Assembly (NCBI GenBank): GCA_027064025.1
Contig: JAMOQL010000120.1
Location: forward strand, 1 to 49,774
DNA length: 49,774 bases
DNA from: Bacteroidales bacterium
GTDB taxonomy: Bacteria; Bacteroidota; Bacteroidia; Bacteroidales; JAFGXI01
Direction of reading: 5' to 3'
Part shown: positions 1 to 13,758 of the stretch, in pieces
Layout of the letters: every line of letters starts with the position of its first letter
Position numbering within the stretch: position 1 is the stretch's first letter
The notes under the pieces: generated by a model
Seen by the model: the letters and a program-made list of their open reading frames with translations, nothing else
Told to the model about the DNA's origin: nothing
Databases searched by the model: none
Position numbers and translations under genes: made by a program

Positions 1-171
1 CTATGCCTGTTCGGAATTGGGGCATTATTTTAAATCAATTTATGACTATATTTGCAGAGAGACTGAGAATTTAAGTTATCGAACCAGTAGATTTTTAGTT
101 TACACAGTTTTCAGAATAGTGTCATAATAAAAAGTATTACTTGTAAATAAATTTACCGAATTAGCTAACCC

Positions 172-208
172 AATAAACAAAGAAAAGCCTTAAACAATGT
201 TTAAGGCT
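172..208 (-). terminator. Rho-independent terminator candidate at the end of the minus-strand operon
   Basis: Inverted repeat agccttaaac/gtttaaggct at 186..208 gives a 10-bp stem with a 3-nt loop. On the minus strand it is followed by a T-rich run (complement of aaacaaagaaaa). It lies 20 nt downstream of the stop at 228. Confidence 0.55.
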
Positions 209-227
209 AGTTAAATAAATTATTAAA

Positions 228-677
228 TTAATTCTTTTTTATCAAGGATAGAATCCCAACGGCACAACCCTCTTTTCCATCTTCAAATGAAATTAAGACC
301 TTATATACTCCAGTTTTAGGACAAATAAAATCGAAATAAGGATAATGTTTTCCTGTCTTTGCAAAATAAGAGGTTCCTAATAATTTTGTTTTATCATAAA
401 GCTGTAAAATAGCTTTTGAATCGAACTCTGTTGCATTACAAATATTAAATCTATAATGATTTCCTTTATTTAATAATAAAGAAAACCTAGCTATTGGTTT
501 CTGTTGACCCTTTTGACGTGGCTTTAATCTTGCTTTAAGTTCTTTAAGATAAGTTGCATCGCTCCCTAATTTAGCACTACAAACCGTTACTAAAGAGCTG
601 TTACATTGAGCTTTTGCTGTATTACTTGATAATATTAATAGAGTAGGTATAATTAATATATATAAATATTTTCTCAT
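228..677 (-). CDS. Small secreted hypothetical protein with several Cys residues, probably a beta-sandwich
   Basis: 149-aa ORF. N-terminal signal peptide MRKYLYILIIPTLLILSSNTAKA/Q. Five further Cys residues. No motif I recognise. It starts 36 nt after the upstream lipoprotein gene. Confidence 0.6.
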   Translation of the reverse strand: MRKYLYILIIPTLLILSSNTAKAQCNSSLVTVCSAKLGSDATYLKELKARLKPRQKGQQKPIARFSLLLNKGNHYRFNICNATEFDSKAILQLYDKTKLLGTSYFAKTGKHYPYFDFICPKTGVYKVLISFEDGKEGCAVGILSLIKKN

Positions 678-713
678 TAATTCTATGTTTTTAGTTTAGA
701 TATCCTCTTTATC

Positions 714-1634
714 TTAATATTTAATAATAAAATTTCTAACATTTTCTACGTTAGCAATTATTTCTTCTAATTGTTCATCTGTCATTTCAATTGTTGTTGT
801 TGTATTTGAAACCACAGTTAAAACGCCATCTACTTCAATCATTTCCGATTCTCCTTCGTGTTCTATTATATTAACTTTTGATAATGAAGCGTTTAAAGTT
901 TCTAACTGGTTATTTAGTTCGAAGAATTTTTTATCATTTTTATAATGAGACAGCACAATCAACAATTGTTCCAAAACAATCTTTTGTTCAGCTACCCGTT
1001 CTCTAATAGTTTGATTATCATTTTCTTTTACAACTTGAGTTGCTAAATACAGACCTTCGACCCATACTCCTGTAACCAACAACGAACTAATACTACTTCT
1101 ATGATTTTCTACTAAATAAGCATCCATATTATCAAAAGCCGAAATTGACATATACATTAAGGAGTCTATATTTTCACTATTTGTTGCCAAACGCTTTAAG
1201 GTTTCAAAGTTAAAAAACTGACCTACTTTCAATTCATCAGAAAGTTCTTTAATCGCTGTAATGTAATTAATAACAGCACCCGTTTTATTATACATATTTA
1301 GGTAACCCATATCTGCACCTAAAACACCCAAATTAAGAGCTTGCTTAAAACTGGTATTGTATTCATCAATATCATCGGTTGAGGATAAAAACTTATAATT
1401 AAATTCTATACCTTCATCTTTTAACAAGGCAGACATTTCTACAGGCGAAGAAATATTTGATATTATTTCTCCCATTGCTTCTTGATCTTCTTCTACAGGC
1501 ACATCGTTAAAAAGAGAATCAGGAACCTCAAAGTTCTCTACATTCAAATCTGTAGTGCTTGAGTCACCCGAGTTATTACAGGCTGAAAAAAAGAAAATAA
1601 TTGCTATTAAGCTAAGCGAAGTTTTAAATTTCAT
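714..1634 (-). CDS. Lipoprotein of unknown function with a predicted helical mature part
   Basis: I moved the start to the internal ATG at 1634 (MKFKTSLSLIAIIFFFSAC NN), which gives a lipobox Cys. The longer ORF-track start at 1697 would lie inside the ABC gene. The ATG overlaps the ABC gene stop by 4 nt (ATGA). Confidence 0.7.
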   Translation of the reverse strand: MKFKTSLSLIAIIFFFSACNNSGDSSTTDLNVENFEVPDSLFNDVPVEEDQEAMGEIISNISSPVEMSALLKDEGIEFNYKFLSSTDDIDEYNTSFKQALNLGVLGADMGYLNMYNKTGAVINYITAIKELSDELKVGQFFNFETLKRLATNSENIDSLMYMSISAFDNMDAYLVENHRSSISSLLVTGVWVEGLYLATQVVKENDNQTIRERVAEQKIVLEQLLIVLSHYKNDKKFFELNNQLETLNASLSKVNIIEHEGESEMIEVDGVLTVVSNTTTTIEMTDEQLEEIIANVENVRNFIIKY

Positions 1635-4600
1635 TTTTTGTGTTTTTTGATTCTTAAATAAAGATAAAATTGTTTTAAATTGAAATACTTTAGCCAATCA
1701 ACTTTTGAACTTATTATTAACAATTTACTTAACAAATCGAAGTATAATGTTATATAAAAGACAATTGTCATTAGCCAAATAATAATAATATTGAATCCAA
1801 ATGTATTATAATAATTTCCTGCAAAAAATTTCTTTGGAGCATAAAAATGTGAACGGAAATTAAAATATCCCTCATCACTTCTTGGAAGCATAAAAATTGG
1901 ATCTATTTGTTGAATAAGGGCATCGTTATATCTGATAAACTGATTCTTTTCATAGATGTTTTTAACTATATCGCTTACAGCATCATTTCTATAGTCATTC
2001 TTTAATTTCTTATACAATTTAGGATTGTTTTCCATTGCCCAAGATATTATCTTATCTTTTTTCCCATTAGCTTCGGTAAACATATTACTATAATAAGTAT
2101 TCAATTCCTCGATATATGACTTTGAAAGAAAAGTTATAAAAAGAGACAACGAATCGGGTTGTAATTTATCGACAAACTTATCGATTGGGAAATTCGGTAA
2201 AACATGATGTTGTTTTTTAAATTCGTTTTGCAATAAATCTAAATCTTCTATTACCTTTTTCTGAATTTGAGGATCGTCAGATTTACAATTTTTATAACTA
2301 TAATCAAGCCGTTCTTTTAACTCAGGGAGATAATAAATTTGTTTAAAATTAGAGACACTTTCTTTTTTATCAATTTCAAAAAACTTTTTCTCGTACTCAT
2401 TATTCTTAAATTGGTTAACCATAAGAGCTTCGTAAGCCCATTTAGAGGCCATAAATTCAGCTACAACAGGTACTTTTTCTACAGTTCCAATACTTCTGTT
2501 TAATTTATCGAAACTAAACATGGCTCCTCCTAAAATCATTTGTGGTATTAAAATTAAAGGAATCATAATATAGATTGTAACCACCGAATTAAAAGCCGAT
2601 GAAATATTTAAGCCCAAAATATTAGCAAAAGAAGCTATACTAAACAACACAATCCAATATTCATAAGTCATTCCCTTAATCCCAAGGATAGAATTACCAA
2701 TAATTGCAAACAGAGCCATTTGAATGGCTGATAAAGAAAATAGAATTCCTATTTTAGATATCAAATAGGAAGACCGACTCAGGTTAAGAAACTTTTCTCT
2801 TTTAAGTATCTTTCGATCTTTAAAAATCTCCTCCGCACTTACGGTAAGCCCCAAAAAAAGTGCAACCACAATTGTCATAAAGATATAAGGAGGGATATTT
2901 TCGTTTTCTCTAAAAATATACACCTGTGAATGCGGATCTGCAATATATCTAATAATAAAAGCTAAAATAACAGCAAGAAGCGGAGCTTCTAATAAATTCA
3001 TCACAATATATTGAGCATTACTTACCTTTGATAAAAAATCTCTTTTAAGATAAATAATTACTTGAGAAAACCATTTGGGTATAGATAAAGACTTTGGAGG
3101 TTGATCGTTAACTGTAGTTATGGCTTTAGTACTAATATTTTCTTGATAAGAATTAGCCCAAGTTTCGGGAAGTACTTTACGTTTTTCTTGAAAAATCCCA
3201 TATTCATCGACTACCTTTGCCTCAATAATATTAAAAATTAATTCAGGGTTTACATTTCCACAAACATGGCACTCCCCAACATCACTATTAACCTGAGCGT
3301 CAACCTTTTTGAAATACATCACTGCTTCTACAGGATTCCCAGAATATATTAAATAGCCTCCAGTATCGAGAATAATCATTCTATCAAACATTTTAAAAAT
3401 ATCTGATGATGGTTGATGAATAACCACGAAAATTAATTTTCCCTTAAGGCTTAACTCCCTTAATAAGTCCATAACATTCTCTGAATCTCTAGAAGAAAGT
3501 CCAGAAGTTGGTTCATCAACAAATAATACGGACGGTTCTCGTATTAATTCAAGAGCAATATTAAGCCGTTTTCGCTGTCCGCCACTAATCAATTTATTTA
3601 AAGGATTCCCTACTTTTAGATCGCGACGATCATATAACTCTAATGATTTTAGAGTTTTATTTACCAATGCATCTAATTCTTCTTTTGTAGAATCTTTAAA
3701 ACATAATTTTGCATTAAAGTATAAATTCTGATAAACAGTCAGCTCTTCAATTAACAAATCATCTTGAGGGATATAACCTATTACACCTTCCAATTCTTCT
3801 TTTTCTGCAAAAAGATCTAAACCATTAATTAATACCTGTCCACTTGTTGGGGCTTGTAAACCCGCCAGAACATTCATTAAAGTTGTTTTACCTGCTCCAC
3901 TGGCGCCCATTATTCCAACAAGTTTCCCTTGCTTTTCTTCGATATTTATATTTCGAAGTCCTAAATTCCCATTAGGAAATTGATAAACAATATTTTTGGC
4001 TTGAAAAGAAATATTTACCTGAGCCCTATCTCGCATAAAACGAGCTATAACATCACTATAATACAAAGGTTTACCCTTTGGTAATTTAATAGAGCTTCCA
4101 TTTGCAAATAAATAAATACTCTCCTTTGTTAATGGTAATCCATTTATTAACAAAGAATTAGCCCCAGTATATTTAACAAAATACAAATCGGTGCTTTCAA
4201 CTCTAAGAATACAAACACGCCCTTCTAAACCTTTTATATTAACATAAAACGAATGTTCGTCTGATTGTTGTTCACTTTCTTCGTAAACAATAATATTTTT
4301 GTTACTTATTTCAGAAATATTTGATAAGACATAGTTTTTAATGTCTTTTACCTCTGTAGAAGAAATATTGAATACTTCGGCAACTGTAGATATTATTGCC
4401 ATTCTTTGCTCAGTAAACTTTTTGTCAGAATTAACCAACTCATAAAGTCTAACTAGCACTACAACTTTCTGTTTCTGCGAAAGTGTTTTATTAATTTTTT
4501 TTGCAATTCCTAGAGTTTTTACAGAATCTCCAACTGAAGTAAGATTCCCTGTACTCTCTTCTTTTTTTTCTCTAAGTTTACTCGTTTTTTTACGAGATTT

Positions 4601-4765
4601 TGCTTTTTTCTCAAAGAGCTCTAAATATGAGTTTAAATCATGCTCTCCAATTTGCTGACGTAAGAACGCACGAACATAAGCCCGCTCAGTATCTTCAACT
4701 CCACCATCTTGTTTTGCAATAATTGCAAATAATTGCATTAAAGCTTTTAAAATCTCTTCACTCAT
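1631..4765 (-). CDS. ABCG-like fused ABC transporter (ATPase plus ABC-2 permease) with a long N-terminal regulatory extension (TerB-like helical region, then an FHA-like segment)
   Basis: Walker A GASGAGKTT, ABC signature LSGGQRKR and Walker B LFVDEPTSGL are present, followed by a multi-TM ABC-2-type region. A soluble insert of about 200 aa precedes the last TM. Roughly 280 aa lie ahead of Walker A. The start is 22 nt after the DUF1987 gene. Confidence 0.85.
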   Translation of the reverse strand: MSEEILKALMQLFAIIAKQDGGVEDTERAYVRAFLRQQIGEHDLNSYLELFEKKAKSRKKTSKLREKKEESTGNLTSVGDSVKTLGIAKKINKTLSQKQKVVVLVRLYELVNSDKKFTEQRMAIISTVAEVFNISSTEVKDIKNYVLSNISEISNKNIIVYEESEQQSDEHSFYVNIKGLEGRVCILRVESTDLYFVKYTGANSLLINGLPLTKESIYLFANGSSIKLPKGKPLYYSDVIARFMRDRAQVNISFQAKNIVYQFPNGNLGLRNINIEEKQGKLVGIMGASGAGKTTLMNVLAGLQAPTSGQVLINGLDLFAEKEELEGVIGYIPQDDLLIEELTVYQNLYFNAKLCFKDSTKEELDALVNKTLKSLELYDRRDLKVGNPLNKLISGGQRKRLNIALELIREPSVLFVDEPTSGLSSRDSENVMDLLRELSLKGKLIFVVIHQPSSDIFKMFDRMIILDTGGYLIYSGNPVEAVMYFKKVDAQVNSDVGECHVCGNVNPELIFNIIEAKVVDEYGIFQEKRKVLPETWANSYQENISTKAITTVNDQPPKSLSIPKWFSQVIIYLKRDFLSKVSNAQYIVMNLLEAPLLAVILAFIIRYIADPHSQVYIFRENENIPPYIFMTIVVALFLGLTVSAEEIFKDRKILKREKFLNLSRSSYLISKIGILFSLSAIQMALFAIIGNSILGIKGMTYEYWIVLFSIASFANILGLNISSAFNSVVTIYIMIPLILIPQMILGGAMFSFDKLNRSIGTVEKVPVVAEFMASKWAYEALMVNQFKNNEYEKKFFEIDKKESVSNFKQIYYLPELKERLDYSYKNCKSDDPQIQKKVIEDLDLLQNEFKKQHHVLPNFPIDKFVDKLQPDSLSLFITFLSKSYIEELNTYYSNMFTEANGKKDKIISWAMENNPKLYKKLKNDYRNDAVSDIVKNIYEKNQFIRYNDALIQQIDPIFMLPRSDEGYFNFRSHFYAPKKFFAGNYYNTFGFNIIIIWLMTIVFYITLYFDLLSKLLIISSKVDWLKYFNLKQFYLYLRIKKHKK

Positions 4766-4787
4766 GCGCTAAAATAAAGCAAAATAT

Positions 4788-5168
4788 TTAGTCTTCGTAT
4801 GGTATTTGTTCGAATGGAACATCTACAATATCAGCATATTCCTCACCAGCTTCTTCCATATCCTCATCATCTTCAGGAAAATACCATTTAACTGAAATTT
4901 CTTTTCCTGCCTCAAACATTTCTTCAAGTTTAAGAAGAATATCTAATAGTAATTTAGACGATGCTGTATTAAAATATTCTAATTTAAAGCCAAAAGTCAT
5001 TTTTTTATACTTGCTTTCTGAGAAATCTTCAAGCCAGTCTAGAATTGGATCATAAAATGCCCCAACATCTTCTGGCAAAGAGCGTCCAGACAACTGAAAA
5101 ATTTCATTCTCTACATCTAAAACAACTGCAGGAGTATCGTCCGTTCCTTGAATCTTGATTATATCCAT
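4788..5168 (-). CDS. SiaC-like DUF1987 regulatory phosphoprotein (partner-switch substrate)
   Basis: 126 aa. The N-terminus IKIQGTDDTPAVVLD..FQLSGRSLPED and the YFNT(68)ASSK motif are typical of DUF1987/SiaC proteins. The C-terminal tail is acidic. Confidence 0.75.
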   Translation of the reverse strand: MDIIKIQGTDDTPAVVLDVENEIFQLSGRSLPEDVGAFYDPILDWLEDFSESKYKKMTFGFKLEYFNTASSKLLLDILLKLEEMFEAGKEISVKWYFPEDDEDMEEAGEEYADIVDVPFEQIPYED

Positions 5169-5196
5169 AGTGTATTTATTTATCTTGTTATAGTTA

Positions 5197-5766
5197 TTAT
5201 TTCTTTCTTTCTATTCGCGATGTTAATATAAAAAATGATACCTGGTCATCGATATCTAAGAAATAGAATTCGAGTGGATTTCCTGTTTTTTTAGCAATAT
5301 CGATAAATCCTAGACCAGCTCCTTGCTTATCCGAAAGAGTACCTCCTTTAATTTGTTCTTTATGAAGTTTTTTTAATCCTTCTTTATCAAGGCTGTTTAT
5401 CAGATTTAGCTGATTTGTTAATTCTTTAATATTATCGTTTGAAACAACATTTCCTGTTGTTACACCATATTGATTTTCGTCTTTATGAATTAAAAAAACA
5501 CCTCTTTTTTCTTTATGGACTTCCCCTAAATCAACCTCCTCGGCATGTTTACTTATGTTTTGCAAACACTCTACCATAACATGAAAAACTTTCCGTTGGG
5601 TAGAACTCGACTCATCTGCTTTATCCATTGCAGATTCGGTTAAAGAGGTAAATGCTTTAGTTATATCATGAGTAATTTCTCCTTCGTATACCAAACTCAC
5701 TTCATTCTGTTTCATTAGTTTATAAAACTGAAAAACGCTTTTGATAAATTCACTTTCTTTAATCAT
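5197..5766 (-). CDS. SiaB-like small protein kinase (anti-sigma-factor-kinase/GHKL-like fold)
   Basis: 189 aa. It has the N-box-like ECLQNISKHA and the G-box-like GAGLGFIDIAKKTGNPLEF that I associate with SiaB-family kinases. It sits between the PP2C and DUF1987 genes. Confidence 0.7.
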   Translation of the reverse strand: MIKESEFIKSVFQFYKLMKQNEVSLVYEGEITHDITKAFTSLTESAMDKADESSSTQRKVFHVMVECLQNISKHAEEVDLGEVHKEKRGVFLIHKDENQYGVTTGNVVSNDNIKELTNQLNLINSLDKEGLKKLHKEQIKGGTLSDKQGAGLGFIDIAKKTGNPLEFYFLDIDDQVSFFILTSRIERKK

Positions 5767-5777
5767 TATTATATTCT

Positions 5778-8405
5778 TTAAAATCCAATTCCTATTAATA
5801 ATATATCATCTATTTGCTTATGCGCTCCTTTATATTCGTCAAAATCTTTAACAAACTTATTAGAATATTCAGGCATTCTCAATTCTTGATTCTTAATAAT
5901 TAACTCTCGCATCCTTTTAGCTTGATACTTTTTATGAGTCTTCTCGCCTACTTGATCAGGTAAACCATCCGAGAAAAAGAAAATCTTATCATCCTTTTTA
6001 ACATCAATTACATAATTTGTAAAATCTTTCTCTTTCTTTTTTTTATGAGGTATTCCTCCAATAGCCTTTCTATCACCTTTAAATATCTCTAAATTATTAT
6101 CACGCAATAAGTATAATGGGCGATGTGCTCCAGCATATTCTAAAACCTTTGTCTTTTTATTATATTTACATAATGCAATGTCCATACCGTCTCTAGCATT
6201 AGCTCCCTCTTGATCTTGACGAAGTGTTTTTCGTACTCCATAATGTAGTTCATCGCAAACTTGAGCTGCAGAAAGTTCTCTATCGTGGTCTACAATATTC
6301 TGTAATAAAAAATATCCAATAAACGAAAGTAAGGCACCTGGGACGCCGTGACCTGTACAATCTACTGCGGCAACATAAACATAGTCTCCTTTTTCAAAAA
6401 GCCATGGAAAATCTCCACTAACAACATCTTTAGGTTTATAAAATATAAAAGAGTCTTTAAAATGATTTTTCAAAACTCCATTATCAGGCAAAATAGCATT
6501 TTGAATTCTTTTAGCATAATTTATACTCTCTGTAATTTTTTTATTCTTATCCTTAATTTCTAGCTCAATCTTCTTTTGCTCTGTAATATCATGAGCCACA
6601 AACAAAACCGTTTCTAAAGTTTGTTGTTCATTATATTCTGGAATAGATGAAATATGCATAATTCTTTGCAACTCATCTGTATCAATAATAAACTCAGCTT
6701 CTTTGTTTACTGGATTTTGATTCATTTCATCGAGAACATTTTCGAAAAAATCTTGTAAACCATTCGGTAATTGGACTTCACTAATAGGTTTATTTATAGC
6801 TTCTTGCACCTGCACTCCTGTATATTGTGTAAAAGTAGGATTTAAATAGAAGAATTTTTTTGTTGAACTTCCAATTCTCATAATAACATCGTTAGAGTTT
6901 TCGGATAGAGATTGCATTTGTCCCCTTCTTCGTTGCTCTTTCTCGGCCAATTTTCTTTGCGATATATCTCGAGTATTTAGAATAATTCCAGCAATTGCGA
7001 GATTTTCTAAAAGATTGATAGCCGTAACTTCTAACCAAACTTTTATACCTTCGTTTTCTTTATACAAAAACTCTACACTTTCTTTCTTTGATGGATTCTG
7101 TTTTACAGAGTTAAATAATTCTTCTAAAATTTCTTGGTTTTGTCCAAGATCTTCAAATATATATGTACCTATCTTTTGGTCAGGCTCATAGCCTAATATT
7201 TTTGTCGTAGCAGGAGACTCATATTGTACAATTCCGTCTTCGTTAATTATTGATATTACCTCTGACGCATTCTCTAACAAAGAATTTAATTTAGTTTGTG
7301 AATTCTCAACTTCCTGAATTTTAATAGCTAAATCTTTATTGGTTTCCTCCAACTCTTCTTGAGTAGACAACATTTCCTCTGCATTTTGTCTTAATTCTTC
7401 TTCATTTTCCTGCAATTCGGTTGTCATTGCTTGTGACTCTGAAAGAAGATTCGCTGTTTTTTCATTAATTAGTATATTAAAGATCGTTTGACCAATAACA
7501 TCTCCTAAATTATTCACAAAATGAATAACACGCTCAGATATTTCGTTGTCAACAGCAGCAAACTCTATTACTCCTCTCAATTTTTCGTCACTAATTAAAG
7601 GAACCAATAAAATTGAGCCAGGCTTTTTATCACCAAGAATTCCAGAGCTAATAGAAACGTAGTCTTCTGGAATTTCTTTTCTATAAATATACTGCTTTTC
7701 GTATGCAACTTGTCCAATAAGACCAACTCCTATAGGAACTTCTTGTTTAATAAACTTCTGCCTGTCATAAGCATACGATGCAACATTTTCAAGAATTTGC
7801 TTTTCTTCATCATATAAATAGAAAGAGCCTTGAATTAAATTAGTGTAGCTTATAATATCTAACAATACTTGATAGGCTAGTTGATTAATATTATTGTATT
7901 TCCTTAAAGTTGAAGAAATAATATCTCGACCTTTTATTTGCCAATTTTGCTCAGTTTCTTTTATTGTTGATTCCTTAAGATTATCTCTCATTAAGATTAA
8001 TTTCTTAATTAAATCATCCTTTTTATTAGTATCTAAAGAAGCTTCGTAATTTCCTTTACTTATTTCATCAGAAAAGCTATAAATACTTTTTAAGTATTCT
8101 TTTTTATCAATTATTTCGTTTTTAAAAGAGGTTTGATCTTTATCTATTATTTTAGCTAGAATTAAAGCAACTCCACCTAAAATAAACGGAGCTAAATCGA
8201 TAACAAAATGTAGTGGATTTGAGATATGCATAGTCCATAAACCTGTAACCGTAATATGAATCCCTCTAAATAATATATCAATAGTCCATGAAATAATGGG
8301 GAACATCATTCCAAAGAGAAAGCCCGCAACAGGATATTTTTGGGTTTCTTCAGATAAATTAAAAAGCCCCTTTTCTACTTCAATATTTTCTTTTTGTTCT
8401 ATCAT
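5778..8405 (-). CDS. Membrane-anchored GAF / coiled-coil / 2x PAS / PP2C (SpoIIE-family) protein phosphatase, SiaA-like
   Basis: 875 aa. N-terminal hydrophobic helices, then a GAF (YAYDRQKF..GVGLIGQ..SSGILG), a Q/E-rich coil and two PAS-like blocks. The C-terminal SpoIIE/PP2C motifs are SGDFPW...AAVDCTGHGVPGALLS...FSDGLPDQ...DDILLIGI. The ATG overlaps the stop of the upstream GAF gene by 1 nt. Confidence 0.85.
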   Translation of the reverse strand: MIEQKENIEVEKGLFNLSEETQKYPVAGFLFGMMFPIISWTIDILFRGIHITVTGLWTMHISNPLHFVIDLAPFILGGVALILAKIIDKDQTSFKNEIIDKKEYLKSIYSFSDEISKGNYEASLDTNKKDDLIKKLILMRDNLKESTIKETEQNWQIKGRDIISSTLRKYNNINQLAYQVLLDIISYTNLIQGSFYLYDEEKQILENVASYAYDRQKFIKQEVPIGVGLIGQVAYEKQYIYRKEIPEDYVSISSGILGDKKPGSILLVPLISDEKLRGVIEFAAVDNEISERVIHFVNNLGDVIGQTIFNILINEKTANLLSESQAMTTELQENEEELRQNAEEMLSTQEELEETNKDLAIKIQEVENSQTKLNSLLENASEVISIINEDGIVQYESPATTKILGYEPDQKIGTYIFEDLGQNQEILEELFNSVKQNPSKKESVEFLYKENEGIKVWLEVTAINLLENLAIAGIILNTRDISQRKLAEKEQRRRGQMQSLSENSNDVIMRIGSSTKKFFYLNPTFTQYTGVQVQEAINKPISEVQLPNGLQDFFENVLDEMNQNPVNKEAEFIIDTDELQRIMHISSIPEYNEQQTLETVLFVAHDITEQKKIELEIKDKNKKITESINYAKRIQNAILPDNGVLKNHFKDSFIFYKPKDVVSGDFPWLFEKGDYVYVAAVDCTGHGVPGALLSFIGYFLLQNIVDHDRELSAAQVCDELHYGVRKTLRQDQEGANARDGMDIALCKYNKKTKVLEYAGAHRPLYLLRDNNLEIFKGDRKAIGGIPHKKKKEKDFTNYVIDVKKDDKIFFFSDGLPDQVGEKTHKKYQAKRMRELIIKNQELRMPEYSNKFVKDFDEYKGAHKQIDDILLIGIGF

Positions 8406-9094
8406 TATTCTTCGAATGCTTCAATTAAAAACTTAATTCTTCGTTCCGATATTTTCTTAAATGTAGCCACCTCAACAACGCCTACGACTTCTTTATGGTT
8501 AAAGATAGGTAAAATATACAAAAAATTTGGCTTAGCTTTACCTAATCCCGAAATTATTTCCATATCTATTTGTTCGGCAATATCAATCCCCACTGGCAAA
8601 CCACTAATAGCAACCTGCCCCGTAATACCTTCTCCCACTTTTATCTCTGTTGGATACATTTCATTGGCAAGAGCATAGCTCGTACTTATACTTAATATTT
8701 TATCTTTCTTTTCGTATGCTAAACCTGCAACCAATTGAATAGCGTCTGCTAATTTTTGAAATTTCAAATTAAATATTTCGCTTTTTGACAAATTACGATC
8801 TATTTGCTCAACTAATTTCAGGCATTTATTTTCTTCATCAATCTCATTTTCTATTATGTTATCTTCACTATTTTCATCTACCAGATTAGTAAGCGCTTCA
8901 AATTCTAATGATATCTTTTTATCTGAGCCTCTCAATAAAATAATATTTATAAGTAATAAAATAATTGATACAAATGCTGAAGAAAAAACAATCTGAGAAA
9001 AATATTTATATTGAATTAGATTTAATATAATTACTCCTATACAAAAAAGGAGGATTATCAAGTTTATATAATTTACTATTTTAAAATTTTTCAT
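8405..9094 (-). CDS. Membrane-anchored stand-alone GAF-domain protein
   Basis: 229 aa with two N-terminal TM helices and a C-terminal GAF (GEGITGQV..ISGLGKAKPNFLYILP..VVGVVEVATF). This GAF is paralogous to the GAFs of the 10506..12485 and 5778..8405 products. Confidence 0.75.
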   Translation of the reverse strand: MKNFKIVNYINLIILLFCIGVIILNLIQYKYFSQIVFSSAFVSIILLLINIILLRGSDKKISLEFEALTNLVDENSEDNIIENEIDEENKCLKLVEQIDRNLSKSEIFNLKFQKLADAIQLVAGLAYEKKDKILSISTSYALANEMYPTEIKVGEGITGQVAISGLPVGIDIAEQIDMEIISGLGKAKPNFLYILPIFNHKEVVGVVEVATFKKISERRIKFLIEAFEE

Positions 9095-9124
9095 TTAATT
9101 TACTTTTTCTTTTTTACTTAAAAT

Positions 9125-9682
9125 TTATAAGTTATTAATAAATTTTGAAATATTTTCTACATTTAATATTTGGTCAGGCTTAAACAACTTCATTGCCGCA
9201 TTAGGCATTGTACTTATCTGACTATCATTGGGATCTTGTACAATTGTACAGCCTCCAAAATCAGAAATCTTTTTTAACCCGTATGCTCCATCTCTATTTG
9301 CTCCCGACAAAATAATTCCAACGAGTTTTTCTCTATAAGCCTCGGCTGCTGTTTGCAATGATAGGTCTATCGATGGTCTCGAATGGTTTACTTGTTCGCT
9401 AACAGAAAGAGAAATACGCCTGTCAACATCTATTAACATATGATAATTGGCTGGTGCTAAGTATGCAATTCCAGGCTTAACTATAGTTTTATCAGAGGGT
9501 TCAATTATTTTAATATTAGATTTAATAGATAGGGCTTCAACAAAGCCATTTCGAACGTGTTTTAAGCGATGTAAACTTAAAAAAACAGGGAGGTTAAAAT
9601 CTTTTGGCAAATGTGACAAAAGATGTACAATAACCTGAAAACTACCTGCTGACCCTCCTATTATTAATGCTTTATACGTCAT
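9125..9682 (-). CDS. CheB-like protein-glutamate methylesterase/deamidase, catalytic domain only with no receiver domain
   Basis: 185 aa. Candidate triad contexts are IIGGSAGS (Ser), FLSLHRL (His) and ILSGANRDG (Asp). These resemble the CheB motifs GASTGG / QHMP / TGMGxDG. The ATG overlaps the CheR-like stop by 1 nt (TAATG). Confidence 0.75.
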   Translation of the reverse strand: MTYKALIIGGSAGSFQVIVHLLSHLPKDFNLPVFLSLHRLKHVRNGFVEALSIKSNIKIIEPSDKTIVKPGIAYLAPANYHMLIDVDRRISLSVSEQVNHSRPSIDLSLQTAAEAYREKLVGIILSGANRDGAYGLKKISDFGGCTIVQDPNDSQISTMPNAAMKLFKPDQILNVENISKFINNL

Positions 9683-10503
9683 TAGTTCTTTTTCTTATAG
9701 ATACTCTCCTTGAGATTAAAAATAGTAAATAATTCTCTATTTGCATCATCTACTAAACTTTCTTTTACACCTAATATTAAAAAGCCTCTAGATTTTAAAC
9801 TTTTGATTAAGTTTTGAGCCACATCGGCTTGTTTCTTTTTATTATATCTTAATAAAATATTCCTATATAATATCATATTTACAGCCTTCGAAAACGGTTG
9901 TTCTATTTCATTATATTCGTATTGAATTGTATTATTAAATAGACTATTTAAAGGAATCATAACGTTCTGTACTTTCGTAAAATATTTTTCGTCTAAATTA
10001 TGCCCATCTATTCTCTTATAATTAGATAGACTTAGTCCATGTTTACGTTCTTCATAATTAAAACCTCCTTTCACATCCGAAAGCACCTTGAAAGGAGAGG
10101 AATAGAATACTTGAATTTTATCAGCCATCCCCAACTCTTCTCTTAAAATAAGAAATGATAATAATTCAGCACCTTGAAAGCAGGAAGGAATCCAAACCTT
10201 ATACATAATATCTCTAGAAAAATTATGCAAGACCTCTTCTTTTACAATCCGCCATAAAGCAGGGTCTCTAAATAATTCAAAAGAGTCAACTAATAAAAAT
10301 TTAATAAATTCATTTCTAAGACTCGAAATTTTCTTTACTTTATTAAAAAGGTCATCAACTGAAGTTATTTTGTATTTATCTATAAACTGTTCCATTTTTA
10401 TTTTGATGGAAACATATGTAAAATCAGATAAATCAAAATTATATATTTCGTTAATAAACTCTATAATTTTCTTTACATCTTTTATTTTAAGGCTAAATCC
10501 CAT
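9682..10503 (-). CDS. CheR-like methyltransferase-fold protein with divergent SAM-binding motifs
   Basis: 273 aa with CheR-like length and layout. KVWIPSCFQGAELLS aligns with canonical (R)VWSAxxSTGEEPYS, and MILYRNILLRYN aligns with IFCRNVMIYF. By eye the acidic ASDID-type motif is replaced by YSSPF. The start is 2 nt after the sensor stop. Confidence 0.65.
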   Translation of the reverse strand: MGFSLKIKDVKKIIEFINEIYNFDLSDFTYVSIKIKMEQFIDKYKITSVDDLFNKVKKISSLRNEFIKFLLVDSFELFRDPALWRIVKEEVLHNFSRDIMYKVWIPSCFQGAELLSFLILREELGMADKIQVFYSSPFKVLSDVKGGFNYEERKHGLSLSNYKRIDGHNLDEKYFTKVQNVMIPLNSLFNNTIQYEYNEIEQPFSKAVNMILYRNILLRYNKKKQADVAQNLIKSLKSRGFLILGVKESLVDDANRELFTIFNLKESIYKKKN

Positions 10504-10505
10504 TT

Positions 10506-12485
10506 TTACTCTTTACTATTTATTTTGGTTTCTAATTCTTTTATTCTTTGTAGTAATTCACTTTCTCTTCTCGACGATTCTTCTTGTGTAGCCTGCATTT
10601 CTTCGAGATTTTGTCTCATTTCTTCTTCTTGAGCAGATAACTCTTCAGATTGTTGCTGCGATTGTTCCAATAATTCCGACGTTTGCTGTGAAATTTTCAC
10701 AGAAGACAAGGTTGAGGCTATACTTTCGCTTATGGTTTCCATAAATTTTATTTTATAATCTTCAATGGGCTTAAAGGATGCTATTTCAATAACAGCAAAT
10801 ACTTTTTCTTCAATTTTCATTGGGACAATTAACAAAAACCTAGGGTTTGCAGTTCCTAATCCAGAAGATATATTAACATAATTATTTGGTATTTCTGAAA
10901 GATAAATAGTCTCCTTTTCAAATACACAAGCCCCTATTAAGCCTTCACCAAATTGAATTTCTTTTTCTAAGAATTTCTTTCTATCATACGCTACTGCCGA
11001 AATTAATTTCAAAGATTTTTCAGTATCGTTAACAATAAACAAACCACCCTGATTTGCTCCAATATACTCTATCACATTTCGAACAATCGTATCAGATAAA
11101 ACCGAAATATCATTTGAATTCTGCCTCAATATCTCTGAAAATTTAGCTATCCCCTCAGTCGCCCAGTTTCGTTTTTCCTCTTCTCGTTTTCTCTCTTGTT
11201 CTAGTTGGTCTGCTTCTTTTAGATTATCTCTCATTTTTATTAGAGAATGGCTTAAAACATCTTCTTCGTTGATATTTTTGAGATCAACTTCCAAATTACC
11301 CTTACCTATTTCATTTGCAAAACTAGTCGATTTTTTCAATCTATCTATCAAAGTATTAAACACATCAGTAATTATTCCAATCTCGTCTGTCCTTTTATTA
11401 TCGATGCTATCTATCAACTCTCCTTTAGCAATTCTTTGGATACTTTTCCCTAAACGGGTTATTGGCTTTGAAACAATCTTTGATATTAACAAAAACAAGA
11501 GAACAAAGCTTATGAAAAAAGCAAGCAATGCAACTATAATACTCGAGCGAATTAAACTAATCATTTTCGCTGAGCTTTCTTTATTATCGATTTGATATAC
11601 GACAAAAGCAATATTTTTTTCATTAAAATCTTTAATAGGAATAAATGCATAACTATATTTATCTGTACTTTTCAAATTTATTCCCAAACCATCTTTTATA
11701 TTAAAATCTTCTGCGTTAATACTTTGGTTGATATAGGCTTCTGAACTTGCCAATTCTACAAAATCCTCATTAGCCTCTATGTTTTTCTTATTTGATAGTT
11801 TGTCCAAACTATTCTTATCTATATACAAAGCATATTCTTTCCCTTCATGATTTTCAATTAACTCATCAATAAATTTCAAAAAAGGATATTCGATTTGAAC
11901 AGCTCCTATGTATTGATTTGTGTTATCTAATATTGGAGCTACAGCGTTTACAAACAAGCCATTTTGATTTACATCAATACCTTTTACAGCAGAATGTTTG
12001 TTAGATATTGTCAATAATATTTCTGAAAAATCACTTAAATCAGATCCTCTTTTATTTGACCACGTTTTATAAAAAGAAGTTGCTGGAGGTAATACAAATT
12101 GAATCCTAGTTTGGAGTTCACTAAGCTTATTTGTTTTGTCTACTAGAGGACTTATTGTTCTTCGTAAAATTGAACTTGTAGAATCCTGGTTATTAATTTT
12201 TTTTTGAAGAATATATGCCCAACGTACTGAAGGTAATTCAGAAAGCATCGAACTCGTAATAAGAGCTTGTTCTGATACTGTTTTCACTTTAGAATATAAT
12301 AATTCTTGAAATTTCACGGCATCCATAGTAACTCGTTCAGTTTGATAGTCTTTTGAATCTCTAATTTTTCTGAAGATTGCAAAACTTGTCAACAATAATA
12401 CAATTAACACTATAGGAATAACTAGTTTATTTGATATCGAAGATTTAATTTTTTCGAGAATATATTTTCTTTTCTTTTGTCCCAT
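10506..12485 (-). CDS. Membrane sensor: TM, Cache-like periplasmic domain, TM, HAMP, HAMP-like linker, GAF, Q/E-rich coiled-coil tail
   Basis: I moved the start to the ATG at 12485 (MGQKKRKYILEK.. followed by a TM helix). The ORF-track start at 12761 would overlap the divergent gene at 12574. HAMP is SKPITRLGKSIQRIAKGEL..DEIGIITDVFNTLIDRL. GAF is AYDRKKF..GEGLIGA..SSGLGTANPRFLLIVP. The protein has no kinase, cyclase or MCP signalling domain. Confidence 0.8.
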   Translation of the reverse strand: MGQKKRKYILEKIKSSISNKLVIPIVLIVLLLTSFAIFRKIRDSKDYQTERVTMDAVKFQELLYSKVKTVSEQALITSSMLSELPSVRWAYILQKKINNQDSTSSILRRTISPLVDKTNKLSELQTRIQFVLPPATSFYKTWSNKRGSDLSDFSEILLTISNKHSAVKGIDVNQNGLFVNAVAPILDNTNQYIGAVQIEYPFLKFIDELIENHEGKEYALYIDKNSLDKLSNKKNIEANEDFVELASSEAYINQSINAEDFNIKDGLGINLKSTDKYSYAFIPIKDFNEKNIAFVVYQIDNKESSAKMISLIRSSIIVALLAFFISFVLLFLLISKIVSKPITRLGKSIQRIAKGELIDSIDNKRTDEIGIITDVFNTLIDRLKKSTSFANEIGKGNLEVDLKNINEEDVLSHSLIKMRDNLKEADQLEQERKREEEKRNWATEGIAKFSEILRQNSNDISVLSDTIVRNVIEYIGANQGGLFIVNDTEKSLKLISAVAYDRKKFLEKEIQFGEGLIGACVFEKETIYLSEIPNNYVNISSGLGTANPRFLLIVPMKIEEKVFAVIEIASFKPIEDYKIKFMETISESIASTLSSVKISQQTSELLEQSQQQSEELSAQEEEMRQNLEEMQATQEESSRRESELLQRIKELETKINSKE

Positions 12486-12533
12486 TGCTTTTCGGATATC
12501 TAAATTTTTAACCTTAATTTCTAATTTTAGTTT

Positions 12534-12541
12534 TATCTTTG
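12534..12541 (+). promoter_or_regulatory. Bacteroidota-type -7 box (TATCTTTG, consensus TAnnTTTG) for the THUMP methyltransferase gene
   Basis: Exact match to TAnnTTTG, 33 nt upstream of the ATG at 12574, inside the divergent intergenic region 12486..12573. Confidence 0.4.
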
Positions 12542-12573
12542 CACAAATTACTTTTACTTTTACAAGATACATA

Positions 12574-13758
12574 ATGTTTGGAAAAAGAATAAAAATTATT
12601 GCAAAAACTTTTTTTGGTCTAGAAGACATTCTAAAAAAAGAGATAGAACAGTTAGGGGCTAAGAAAATTAAAACCCTCAATAGAGCTGTTGAGTTTGAAG
12701 GAGATTTAGAGCTCTTATATACCGCTAATTTAAAATTAAGAACTGCTCTTTCTATTATCACTCCTATATTTGAATTTAAAGCAAAGAATGATGACCAGCT
12801 TTATAAACAAGTGTTAGAGTATAATTGGGGACGCATCTTCAATTTACATCAAACATTTGCCGTTTTCTCAGTGGTTCATTCAGAATTTTTTAATCATTCT
12901 CAGTACACATCTCTAAAAATTAAAGATGGAATAGCTGACCATTTTCGTCAAAAATACAATGAAAGACCAGATGTTGACAAGAAATTTGCAGATATTAAAA
13001 TAGTTGCTCATATCAACGACGATAAGGTTACCATTCTATTAGACACCTCTGGTAAAGCATTATTCCAAAGAGGATACAAGACAGAAATAACAGAAGCTCC
13101 CATAAACGAAGTTCTTGCTGCTGGTATAATATTACAATCTGATTGGGATATGAAAACTCCATTTATCGACCCTATGTGTGGTTCGGGAACTTTTCTTATT
13201 GAAGCGGCAATGATTGCTTCTAACACGCCTCCAAATATTTATAGACAACGATTTGGGTTCCAGAATCTAAGAAATTACGATGAGCTTCTTTGGAATTCTA
13301 TTTTAGATAAAGCAACCAAAGAAATTATTGAAGAAATTCCACCTATTCTCGGAAATGATATATCTGACGAGGTCATCGAAATAGCTCAAACAAATATTGA
13401 TAATACCAGATTTAAAAGAAATATTAGTTTGAATTGTGCCCATTTCACAAATTTTGAGCATGAACAAAAAGACGGTACTTTAATTACCAATCCACCTTAC
13501 GACGAACGTCTTAAAACGGCAGACATTATCGAGCTTTATCAAGATTTAGGTGATACTTTTAAAGAAAAATATAAGAATTTTGATTGTTGGGTTTTTTCGG
13601 GAAACCTACCAGCTCTTAAACGCTTAGGTCTTAAAACATCAAGACGCATCAAACTGTTTAACGGTCCTATTGAAGGTCGCTTAAATTTATACAAAATGTA
13701 CGATGGGAGCAAAAGAACTAAATATAATCAATATTTTGGAACTCCTGATCAGGACTAA
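12574..13758 (+). CDS. THUMP-domain class I SAM-dependent RNA methyltransferase (RlmL/RlmK N-terminal-like, UPF0020)
   Basis: 394 aa. THUMP-like N-terminus, SAM motif I DPMCGSGTFLIEA and catalytic NPPYDERL. Confidence 0.8.
   Translation: MFGKRIKIIAKTFFGLEDILKKEIEQLGAKKIKTLNRAVEFEGDLELLYTANLKLRTALSIITPIFEFKAKNDDQLYKQVLEYNWGRIFNLHQTFAVFSVVHSEFFNHSQYTSLKIKDGIADHFRQKYNERPDVDKKFADIKIVAHINDDKVTILLDTSGKALFQRGYKTEITEAPINEVLAAGIILQSDWDMKTPFIDPMCGSGTFLIEAAMIASNTPPNIYRQRFGFQNLRNYDELLWNSILDKATKEIIEEIPPILGNDISDEVIEIAQTNIDNTRFKRNISLNCAHFTNFEHEQKDGTLITNPPYDERLKTADIIELYQDLGDTFKEKYKNFDCWVFSGNLPALKRLGLKTSRRIKLFNGPIEGRLNLYKMYDGSKRTKYNQYFGTPDQD

What the first reader, a model, noticed from the sequence alone, without database searches (positions are those of the whole stretch)
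4788..8405. SiaA/SiaB/SiaC-type partner switch without any diguanylate cyclase partner
Seen in sequence: a PP2C/SpoIIE phosphatase, a 189-aa kinase with N-box and G-box-like motifs (ECLQNISKHA, GAGLGFIDIAKK) and a 126-aa DUF1987 protein lie in a row, with gaps of 11 and 28 nt. The DUF1987 protein has a Thr at residue 68 (codon 4965..4967) in the conserved YFNT motif. Established knowledge, as I recall it: in P. aeruginosa, SiaB phosphorylates SiaC on Thr68 and SiaA dephosphorylates it. Unphosphorylated SiaC activates the cyclase SiaD. No GGDEF, EAL or HD-GYP ORF exists in this window, and the next gene 22 nt downstream is an ABC exporter. Inference: the switch has been re-targeted to a c-di-GMP-independent output.
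Basis: partly seen in the sequence, partly recalled or inferred. Interest (0 to 1): 0.75.

Follow-up and report, generated by a model that had tools for sequence, protein, structure and literature searches.

The report
SiaABC-type switch wired to ABC exporter
A three-protein phosphorylation switch that turns on a c-di-GMP-making enzyme in Pseudomonas sits here in a ten-gene operon, conserved across Bacteroidota, that has no such enzyme and lies next to an ABC export pump, which is probably what the switch controls.

Summary
Three minus-strand ORFs are true homologues of P. aeruginosa SiaA, SiaB and SiaC. Each gives a direct hit to the crystal-structure sequence, and Thr68 aligns with the known phosphosite. 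No GGDEF, EAL or HD-GYP gene exists in the window, or within ±10 kb of SiaC in about 170 related Bacteroidota loci.

The switch is the centre of a roughly 12.5-kb operon: dCache-HAMP-GAF sensor, CheR, REC-less CheB, 2TM-GAF protein, SiaA-like phosphatase, SiaB, SiaC, a 1044-aa ABCG-type exporter, a lipoprotein and a small secreted protein. This order holds in every one of 80 Bacteroidales species genomes whose contig reaches far enough, and in Fulvivirga (Cytophagales). In a second SiaC clade, SiaB-SiaC lie convergent to the same exporter family in 27 of 52 informative loci, and no other neighbour recurs.

The exporter has a cytoplasmic N-terminal module made of a TerB-like bundle and a non-canonical FHA-like domain. 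This is a plausible docking site for SiaC.

Most likely reading: a c-di-GMP-independent partner switch gates the exporter, with CheR/CheB methylation probably tuning the sensor phosphatase. Binding and phosphotransfer are untested. This is a new variant of a known kind and is moderately interesting.

The parts
10506..12572 (-). Membrane sensor: TM, dCache_3, TM, HAMP, GAF, then an acidic heptad helix. It is the first gene of the operon. The start at 12572 follows the public gene call; upstream starts as far as 12761 are possible.
   Evidence: Pfam dCache_3, HAMP and GAF_2; gene call in L001; TM segments at aa 49-67 and 345-363. It is present upstream of CheR in only a subset of related loci.
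10575..10628 (-). Heptad motif 'EEEMRQNLEEMQATQEE' near the C-terminus of the dCache-HAMP-GAF protein. It is a candidate CheR/CheB substrate site.
   Evidence: The motif recurs in the upstream GAF proteins of many loci. It fits the MCP methylation consensus [EQ][EQ]xx[AST][AST]; that consensus is from my own knowledge.
9682..10503 (-). CheR-type protein-glutamate methyltransferase
   Evidence: Pfam CheR E=7.3e-13. Conserved in 72 of 88 loci; among the 80 species-genome loci it is missing only where the contig ends.
9125..9682 (-). CheB methylesterase domain alone, with no receiver domain
   Evidence: Pfam CheB_methylest E=5.4e-46, covering aa 7-182 of 185. 46-78% identical in related loci.
8405..9094 (-). 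Small membrane protein with two TM segments and a GAF domain
   Evidence: Weak GAF_2 hit; GAF_2 on the orthologues; TM segments at aa 6-24 and 35-53.
5778..8405 (-). SiaA-like phosphatase: two TM segments, GAF, acidic heptad helix, PAS, PAS, PP2C/SpoIIE
   Evidence: Pfam. The PP2C domain hits only SiaA-PP2C 6K4E, E=3.2e-29. The NCBIfam SiaA equivalog matches the PP2C part only, 161.7 bits against a cutoff of 700. TM segments.
7347..7409 (-). Heptad motif 'NEEELRQNAEEMLSTQEELEE' (aa 333-353) between GAF and PAS. It is a candidate methylation site.
   Evidence: Nearly invariant in all PP2C orthologues that are about 50% identical overall. The 20-aa window conservation is 0.95, second only to the catalytic DCTGHG segment at 0.98.
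5197..5766 (-). SiaB-family protein kinase
   Evidence: Pfam DUF6272 E=3.3e-42; SiaB 6KKO_A E=1.8e-15; NF038262 174 bits, above the cutoff of 85.
4788..5168 (-). SiaC-family (DUF1987) phosphoprotein. Thr68 is at 4965..4967.
   Evidence: Pfam SiaC E=5.9e-41; 6KKO_C E=7.6e-17 with Thr68 aligned. It is the most conserved protein of the cluster, 68-86% identical. 'EYFNT[AS]SS' is kept in all homologues examined.
1631..4765 (-). ABCG-type exporter, 1044 aa: TerB-like bundle, FHA-like domain, NBD, five TM segments, a loop of about 240 aa, and a sixth TM segment
   Evidence: Pfam TerB, ABC_tran and ABC2_membrane. The best NCBIfam match is TIGR00955, below its cutoff. Topology.
4046..4765 (-). Cytoplasmic N-terminal module of the exporter: helical TerB-like bundle (aa 1-147) and FHA-like beta-sandwich (aa ~155-240). 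It is the candidate SiaC docking site.
   Evidence: AlphaFold2 pLDDT 84.7, pTM 0.80. Foldseek finds FHA domains (probability about 1.0, E about 1e-2) and 2H5N for the helical part. A profile search hits the MEK1 FHA domain at E=0.014. The family has 368 clusters at E<=1e-10, always with the module at residues 1-265 of proteins of about 1000 aa.
714..1634 (-). Conserved lipoprotein of 306 aa. Its start overlaps the ABC stop. Function unknown.
   Evidence: Invariant lipobox Cys19. No Pfam or NCBIfam hit. The model is helical with no significant PDB match. It is syntenic in 77 of 88 loci.
228..677 (-). Small secreted protein of 149 aa with a signal peptide and several Cys residues. Function unknown.
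   Evidence: No family hit. Syntenic in 77 of 88 loci. The median gap to the lipoprotein gene is 2 nt.
186..208 (-). Terminator-like hairpin that closes the operon
   Evidence: A 10-bp stem followed by a T-run. It is the strongest minus-strand terminator-like site in 1..13500.

Best explanation
This is a Bacteroidota signalling-and-export operon built around a SiaA/SiaB/SiaC-type partner switch that does not use c-di-GMP.

By homology with P. aeruginosa:
- The SiaB-family kinase phosphorylates the DUF1987 protein on Thr68.
- The membrane-bound PP2C phosphatase removes the phosphate when its 2TM-GAF-PAS-PAS sensor part is stimulated. The accessory dCache-HAMP-GAF and 2TM-GAF proteins may also feed in.

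Inference:
- Unphosphorylated SiaC then binds the cytoplasmic N-terminal TerB/FHA-like module of the ABCG-type exporter encoded 22 nt downstream. This switches on or off the export of an unknown envelope or extracellular substrate.
- The exporter probably works with the co-encoded lipoprotein and small periplasmic protein.
- CheR and the REC-less CheB methylate and demethylate the nearly invariant acidic heptad helix after the GAF domains. This would give the sensor phosphatase chemotaxis-style adaptation without CheA, CheW or an MCP.
For: Homology of all three switch proteins to the structurally and biochemically characterised P. aeruginosa proteins, with Thr68, the kinase motifs and the PP2C catalytic segment conserved.

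Operon structure:
- The gaps in the window are 11, 28 and 22 nt.
- The median SiaC-to-ABC gap is 38 nt, and it is 60 nt or less in 78 of 82 loci.
- The only strong terminator-like hairpin follows the last gene.

Synteny:
- The order CheR-CheB-GAF-PP2C-SiaB-SiaC-ABC-lipoprotein-P149 holds in every one of 80 Bacteroidales species genomes where the contig extends.
- The same order occurs in Fulvivirga maritima, Cytophagales.
- It also occurs in a third lineage with different downstream genes.
- In a second SiaC clade, SiaB-SiaC are convergent to the same ABC family in 27 of 52 informative loci. L101 also has the lipoprotein gene and a PP2C with a different sensor.
- Where the ABC gene is absent, the neighbours are unrelated housekeeping genes, so no alternative partner recurs.

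No GGDEF occurs in any Bacteroidota locus, and the phylum is GGDEF-poor.

The exporter carries a dedicated, conserved, cytoplasmic protein-interaction-type module.

SiaC keeps the phospho-loop (Y65, N67, T68), but 9 of the 14 SiaD-contacting residues differ, including the charge change R103D.

The eLife 2021 authors proposed that DUF1987 proteins regulate adjacent proteins.
Against: - No binding, phosphotransfer or transport data exist. Everything beyond homology rests on gene neighbourhood.
- The same exporter family, with an equally conserved N-terminal module, occurs without any adjacent switch (L090, L096, L098, L099). The module therefore cannot exist only to dock SiaC.
- 23 of 52 clade-B SiaB-SiaC pairs have no such exporter within the flank.
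- Bernardetia and Persicobacter have SiaB-SiaC without it.
- The changed SiaD-contact residues are what 31% identity would give anyway.
- The CheR/CheB substrate assignment rests only on motif conservation and on resemblance to the MCP consensus.
- The rest of the genome could not be searched for GGDEF proteins.
Confidence: 0.55

Rival explanations
1. The switch is real, but its target is encoded elsewhere: a rare GGDEF cyclase, another enzyme or a transcription factor. The ABC exporter, lipoprotein and small protein are only co-transcribed or co-regulated cargo.
For: Many SiaB-SiaC pairs in Bacteroidota stand alone among unrelated genes, so SiaC must have unlinked partners in at least some genomes. 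The exporter family also exists without the switch.
Against: The exporter is the only recurrent neighbour, and the link survives a change from co-directional to convergent arrangement. Co-transcription alone does not explain that. No GGDEF lies within ±10 kb in about 170 loci, and the phylum is GGDEF-poor.
Confidence: 0.2
2. The polarity is reversed. The FHA-like domain of the exporter reads phospho-Thr68, so phosphorylated SiaC is the form that binds and regulates the pump. This would resemble the FHA-regulated ABC exporter Rv1747 of M. tuberculosis.
For: The domain at aa ~155-240 has an FHA fold and a weak FHA sequence signal. It sits in a protein encoded next to a Thr-phosphorylated protein.
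Against: The canonical phosphothreonine-binding residues are not kept. The Arg of the 'GR' motif is not conserved (N, E or T at position 183). The 'SxxH' His is Leu or Met. The 'SxNG' loop is G-[ED]-[ED], which is acidic and should repel phosphate. Pfam FHA models do not match even at E<=1.
Confidence: 0.12
3. The exporter is on the input side. Its transport cycle or substrate load is reported to SiaB or SiaC through the TerB/FHA-like module, as in flux-sensing ABC systems, and the real output of SiaC is something else.
For: The N-terminal module is conserved even where no switch is adjacent, which suggests it has a function of its own. The pathway already has several sensors, so it appears to integrate many signals.
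Against: In the only characterised system, SiaC is the output adaptor and the phosphatase is the sensor. No separate output gene is conserved in the neighbourhood.
Confidence: 0.08

Closest known systems
P. aeruginosa SiaABCD (PA0172-PA0169)
   Same: It has the same three-protein core in the same gene order: a membrane PP2C phosphatase, a SiaB-family kinase and a DUF1987 phosphoprotein with Thr68 in Y-x-N-T. All three are detectable by direct sequence search against the crystal-structure sequences.
   Different: - No SiaD or GGDEF gene follows; an ABCG-type exporter does.
- The phosphatase sensor part is 2TM-GAF-PAS-PAS rather than the SiaA N-terminal region. NCBIfam equivalog scores are far below cutoff for all three proteins.
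- 9 of the 14 SiaD-contact residues of SiaC are changed.
- CheR, CheB and extra GAF sensors lie upstream.
STAS-type partner switches (RsbU/V/W, HptB-HsbR-HsbA, BgrSTUWV)
   Same: The logic is the same: a PP2C phosphatase and a GHKL-like kinase set the Ser/Thr phosphorylation state of a small adaptor, and that state decides which partner the adaptor binds. The DUF1987 fold is described as STAS-related (PMC8457831).
   Different: There is no sigma or anti-sigma factor and no STAS Pfam domain. The presumed output is a transporter rather than a sigma factor or cyclase.
M. tuberculosis Rv1747, an ABC exporter with N-terminal FHA domains regulated by Ser/Thr phosphorylation (from my own knowledge)
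   Same: It is an ABC-2/ABCG-like exporter whose cytoplasmic N-terminus carries FHA-fold regulatory domains and which is linked to Thr phosphorylation signalling.
   Different: Here a TerB-like bundle precedes a single FHA-like domain that lacks the canonical pThr pocket. The phosphoprotein is a separate DUF1987 adaptor controlled by a SiaB kinase, not a Hanks-type kinase acting on the transporter itself.
Chemosensory-like pathways with alternative outputs, such as Wsp of P. aeruginosa (from my own knowledge)
   Same: CheR and CheB homologues are encoded together with a sensor and a non-motility output.
   Different: The cluster has no CheA, CheW, MCP signalling domain or receiver domain. The presumed methyl-accepting helix sits after GAF domains in a PP2C phosphatase and in GAF sensor proteins.

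Membership tests
SiaABCD-type partner switch | A DUF1987/SiaC-family protein with the phosphorylatable Thr in the Y-x-N-T loop | tested here: met
   PF09345 E=5.9e-41. The alignment to 6KKO_C is ungapped and Thr68 lies on Thr68.
SiaABCD-type partner switch | An adjacent SiaB-family kinase with conserved N-box-like and G-box-like motifs | tested here: met
   NF038262 174 bits, above the cutoff of 85. 6KKO_A E=1.8e-15 with both motifs aligned.
SiaABCD-type partner switch | An adjacent SiaA-type PP2C phosphatase | tested here: met
   The PP2C domain hits only 6K4E, E=3.2e-29. The catalytic segment is the most conserved part of the protein. The N-terminal sensor differs from that of SiaA.
SiaABCD-type partner switch | A co-encoded SiaD-type GGDEF diguanylate cyclase as the output | tested here: not met
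   No GGDEF in the window or in any Bacteroidota locus. The proteobacterial control loci L093 and L094 do have one.
SiaABCD-type partner switch | Functional equivalence by NCBIfam equivalog thresholds for SiaA, SiaB and SiaC | tested here: not met
   SiaC 89.6 bits against a cutoff of 150; SiaB 87.7 against 225; SiaA 161.7 against 700.
SiaABCD-type partner switch | Phosphotransfer to Thr68 and its removal by the PP2C; phosphorylation-sensitive partner binding | not testable with these tools
   This needs biochemistry.
Chemosensory (Che) pathway | CheA kinase, CheW adaptor and an MCP signalling domain alongside CheR and CheB | tested here: not met
   The cluster has only CheR and a REC-less CheB. 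No CheW, MCPsignal or HATPase_c-type CheA hit occurs in any of its ten proteins or in the syntenic clusters.
FHA domain (phosphothreonine reader) | FHA beta-sandwich fold | tested here: met
   The top Foldseek hits are all FHA domains, probability about 1.0. A profile search hits the MEK1 FHA domain at E=0.014.
FHA domain (phosphothreonine reader) | Conserved pThr-binding residues: the Arg of GR, the Ser and His of SxxH, and the Asn of SxNG | tested here: not met
   Arg183 is not conserved. The His position is Leu or Met. The SxNG loop is G-[ED]-[ED]. Only Ser191 and the structural 'NG' and 'G-S/D' positions are kept. There is no Pfam FHA hit.
ABCG / ABC-2 type exporter | An NBD followed by an ABC-2 membrane domain in one polypeptide | tested here: met
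   ABC_tran at aa 270-421 and ABC2_membrane at aa 568-786. The best NCBIfam match is TIGR00955, 279.8 bits, below its cutoff of 736. Six TM segments with a large loop between TM5 and TM6.

The most novel reading that the evidence does not exclude
This would be a phylum-wide Bacteroidota pathway in which a Thr-phospho partner switch (SiaA/B/C) directly gates an ABC exporter through the exporter's TerB/FHA-like N-terminal module. It would be the first partner switch known to control a transporter. In the same pathway, CheR and CheB, with no CheA, CheW or MCP, would methylate a conserved acidic helix in GAF-PP2C and GAF sensor proteins. That would give chemotaxis-style adaptation to a Ser/Thr phosphatase, in a phylum that largely lacks both flagellar chemotaxis and c-di-GMP signalling.
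Probability: 0.3. Interest if true: 0.8.

Novelty: new variant of a known kind. Interest (0 to 1): 0.6.

Why it matters
The only studied SiaABC system acts through c-di-GMP. The authors of its structure suggested that DUF1987 proteins regulate whatever is encoded next to them, but no second output has been described in the literature I could search.

This operon offers a concrete and widely conserved second output, an ABC exporter. Two cultured hosts carry it: Perlabentimonas gracilis and Fulvivirga maritima.

It would show how Bacteroidota, which largely lack c-di-GMP, use this switch. It may also reveal non-chemotaxis substrates for the orphan CheR and CheB enzymes that are common in the phylum. 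The exporter, lipoprotein and small secreted protein form an uncharacterised envelope system whose substrate is unknown.

Tried and rejected
- Pfam FHA models do not match the exporter N-terminus even at E<=1. The FHA assignment rests on the fold and one weak profile hit. The canonical pThr-reader reading was marked down after I inspected the loop residues.
- AlphaFold2 of the 306-aa lipoprotein gave a helical model at pLDDT 75, but Foldseek found no significant PDB match (best E=0.1, designed repeat proteins and EfeM/EfeO at low probability). Its function remains unknown.
- PADLOC returned only generic ABC-ATPase hits, so I rejected a defence-system identity despite the TerB domain.
- Literature searches for DUF6272, DUF1987, and SiaC outside Pseudomonas returned only P. 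aeruginosa SiaABCD work. Searches for CheB-CheR fusions and for GAF/SpoIIE with CheR/CheB returned nothing relevant.
- The cluster-member look-up gave no organism names for the variant loci L090 and L095-L097.
- I considered a mirror-tree co-evolution test between SiaC and the exporter N-terminus. I did not run it, because shared phylogeny would dominate the signal.
- A complex prediction of SiaC with the exporter N-terminus was not possible with the tools and caps available.

Full report
**Observation**

- Pfam assigns the 126-aa protein to the SiaC family (PF09345, E=5.9e-41).
- It assigns the 189-aa protein to DUF6272 (E=3.3e-42).
- The 875-aa protein carries GAF, two PAS domains and SpoIIE/PP2C.

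Direct sequence searches against PDB chains tie each protein to the P. aeruginosa system itself.
- SiaC (6KKO_C/6KKP/7E6G): E=7.6e-17, ungapped, with 'YFNT68' on 'YLNT68'.
- SiaB (6KKO_A): E=1.8e-15, with both ATP-binding-type motifs aligned.
- SiaA-PP2C (6K4E): the only PDB hit of the phosphatase domain, E=3.2e-29.

NCBIfam puts the kinase above the cutoff of the SiaB_fam_kinase model. All three proteins fall far below the 'equivalog' cutoffs for SiaA, SiaB and SiaC. They are therefore homologues, but not the same functional subtype.

No GGDEF, EAL or HD-GYP domain is present in any ORF of at least 120 aa or as a motif in any frame.

**What surrounds it**

The window is the end of a 163-kb metagenome contig from a Bacteroidales-like organism with about 31% G+C. 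The switch genes are the middle of a run of ten co-directional, tightly spaced genes:
- a dCache_3-HAMP-GAF membrane sensor;
- CheR;
- a CheB methylesterase without a receiver domain;
- a small 2TM-GAF protein;
- the phosphatase, SiaB and SiaC;
- a 1044-aa ABC protein;
- a 306-aa lipoprotein, whose start overlaps the ABC stop;
- a 149-aa secreted protein.

The only strong terminator-like hairpin on that strand follows the last gene.

**Conservation**

A scan of one genome per GTDB species found 450 relatives of SiaC. The best 80 are all Bacteroidales: Salinivirgaceae, Tenuifilaceae and others, including the cultured Perlabentimonas gracilis. The order CheR-CheB-GAF-PP2C-SiaB-SiaC-ABC-lipoprotein-P149 is kept wherever the contig reaches far enough. 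Identities to the window proteins are:
- SiaC 68-86%;
- ABC protein 52-77%;
- lipoprotein 40-69%;
- small protein 31-78%.

Intergenic gaps stay operon-like. The median SiaB-SiaC gap is 13 nt and the median SiaC-ABC gap is 38 nt.

The same cluster is present in the complete genome of Fulvivirga maritima, in a different class, Cytophagia. It also occurs in a third lineage that has two SiaB copies and different downstream genes.

**Second arrangement**

Distant members of the exporter family (32-35% identity in the N-terminal module) have SiaB-SiaC immediately downstream on the opposite strand. In L101 they also have the lipoprotein homologue upstream and a SiaA-type PP2C with a beta-propeller sensor 2 kb away. 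That locus has no CheR or CheB.

A metagenome scan with that SiaC gave 80 loci. Of the 52 with enough downstream sequence or an ABC hit:
- 27 have the exporter convergent within 1.2 kb;
- 2 have it elsewhere in the locus;
- 23 lack it.

In those 23 loci the neighbours are unrelated housekeeping genes, and only Reg_prop/Y_Y_Y-SpoIIE recurs. The exporter family is therefore the only recurrent non-switch neighbour of SiaB-SiaC in Bacteroidota. The link also survives a rearrangement that removes co-transcription.

The link is not obligatory in the other direction. The exporter, lipoprotein and small-protein genes occur without the switch at the same chromosomal position (L090, L096). More distant exporters also lack it (L098, L099).

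**No cyclase**

I ran phmmer with two SiaD-like GGDEF proteins taken from proteobacterial control loci: Azospirillum, and Paraburkholderia, where Pfam confirmed the GGDEF domain. It found GGDEF only in those two loci among 101 loci (1.66 Mb), and none in the further 80 loci (0.65 Mb).

[quoted passage not shown] Other Bacteroidota also carry SiaB-SiaC without a cyclase, namely plasmids of Bernardetia and Persicobacter. A cyclase-less Sia module is therefore normal for this phylum rather than special to this window.

**The exporter**

The exporter has an NBD followed by an ABC-2 membrane domain (ABCG-like). It has five TM segments, a loop of about 240 aa and a sixth TM segment.

Its first 265 residues were modelled with a 46-sequence alignment (pLDDT 84.7, pTM 0.80). 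The model is a helical bundle (aa 1-147) plus a beta-sandwich (aa ~158-235).
- Foldseek matches the sandwich to FHA domains: Rad53, MEK1, CEP170, DgcB and EssC.
- It matches the bundle to the TerB-like protein PG1108.
- A profile of the sandwich hits only the MEK1 FHA domain in PDB sequences, E=0.014.

The residues that bind phosphothreonine in canonical FHA domains are not kept. The GR arginine is variable, the His is Leu or Met, and the SxNG loop is acidic. I therefore treat it as a non-canonical FHA-like interaction domain.

The module defines a coherent family. It has 368 clusters at E<=1e-10, and the module is always at the N-terminus of proteins of about 1000 aa.

**Input side**

After the GAF domain of the phosphatase lies 'NEEELRQNAEEM(R/L)(A/S)TxEELE'. 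This stretch is nearly invariant in orthologues that are about 50% identical overall. It is the second most conserved 20-aa window of the protein, after the catalytic site.

A paralogous 'QEEEMRQNxEE[LM]xATQEE' follows the GAF domain of the upstream sensor proteins. These are heptads of EE pairs followed by small residues. They match the methylation consensus of chemoreceptors, which I know from memory.

CheR and CheB are the conserved neighbours, and no CheA, CheW or MCP domain is present. That CheR and CheB act on these helices is inference only.

**Mechanism**

Established for P. aeruginosa: SiaB phosphorylates SiaC on Thr68 and SiaA dephosphorylates it. Unphosphorylated SiaC inserts the N67-T68-S69 loop between helices of its partner, and phosphorylation blocks binding (PMC8457831).

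Inferred here:
- The same phospho-cycle operates in this operon.
- The partner is the exporter's N-terminal module.
- The sensor phosphatase is tuned by methylation.

SiaC here keeps Y65, N67, T68 and E110, but 9 of the 14 SiaD-contacting residues have changed. This is compatible with a different partner but does not prove one.

The rivals are an unlinked target, phospho-dependent binding through the FHA-like domain, and the exporter acting as an input. They are listed with their tests in the rival explanations.

**Novelty**

The literature I could search deals only with P. aeruginosa SiaABCD. Its authors speculated that DUF1987 proteins regulate adjacent proteins.

This operon is a concrete and widespread variant with a different presumed output and an unusual input. 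The kind of system, a partner switch, is known. The wiring is new and untested.

Noticed in passing
window 9125-10503 (CheB, CheR), 7347-7409 and 10575-10628 (motifs): CheR and a receiver-less CheB are encoded with no CheA, CheW or MCP. They lie next to GAF proteins that carry a nearly invariant acidic heptad helix, 'EEELRQNAEEM..TQEE', which resembles chemoreceptor methylation sites. These may be non-MCP substrates of CheR and CheB.
   Followed up: partly
window 3971-4765 (ABC protein aa 1-265): The exporter N-terminus is a TerB-like helical bundle plus an FHA-fold domain that lacks the canonical phosphothreonine pocket. The module defines a family of about 1000-aa ABC proteins, with 368 clusters at E<=1e-10.
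   Followed up: yes
L090 10001-14518; L096 8001-12431: The exporter, lipoprotein and small-protein genes occur at the same chromosomal position, next to DUF6427 and purD, but without the whole CheR-to-SiaC block. The seven regulatory genes therefore behave as one gain-or-loss unit.
   Followed up: partly
L095 6395-7552; L097 6378-7527: A third lineage (42-50% G+C) has two tandem or fused SiaB (DUF6272) copies before SiaC. It also has REC-CheB and CheD upstream, and two-component genes in place of the lipoprotein and small-protein genes after the exporter.
   Followed up: no
L100 6744-7708; L101 2163-12942; L109-L181: In a second SiaC clade, SiaB-SiaC are convergent to the exporter. L101 has the lipoprotein and small-protein genes upstream of the exporter and a Reg_prop/Y_Y_Y-PP2C nearby. 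There is no CheR or CheB in L100 or L101, nor (tblastn, E<=1e-5) in any of the 80 clade-B loci.
   Followed up: yes
L092 (Persicobacter plasmid pPP7) 1-8378: SpoIIE-SiaB-DUF1987 follows, on the same strand, a giant fibronectin-III protein and a TonB-dependent receptor. This is another possible non-cyclase context for a Sia-type switch.
   Followed up: no
window 12572-12574: The called start of the first operon gene (12572, minus strand) and the start of the divergent rlmL-like gene (12574, plus strand) are 1 nt apart, which leaves no intergenic promoter region. Alternative upstream starts (12629, 12761) would overlap rlmL. The true start and promoter are unresolved.
   Followed up: no
window 714-1634 and 228-677: Two conserved envelope proteins, a lipoprotein and a Cys-containing 149-aa secreted protein, have no family assignment. 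The lipoprotein model has no PDB fold match.
   Followed up: partly
window 15502-16449: A 315-aa minus-strand ORF with no Pfam match.
   Followed up: no
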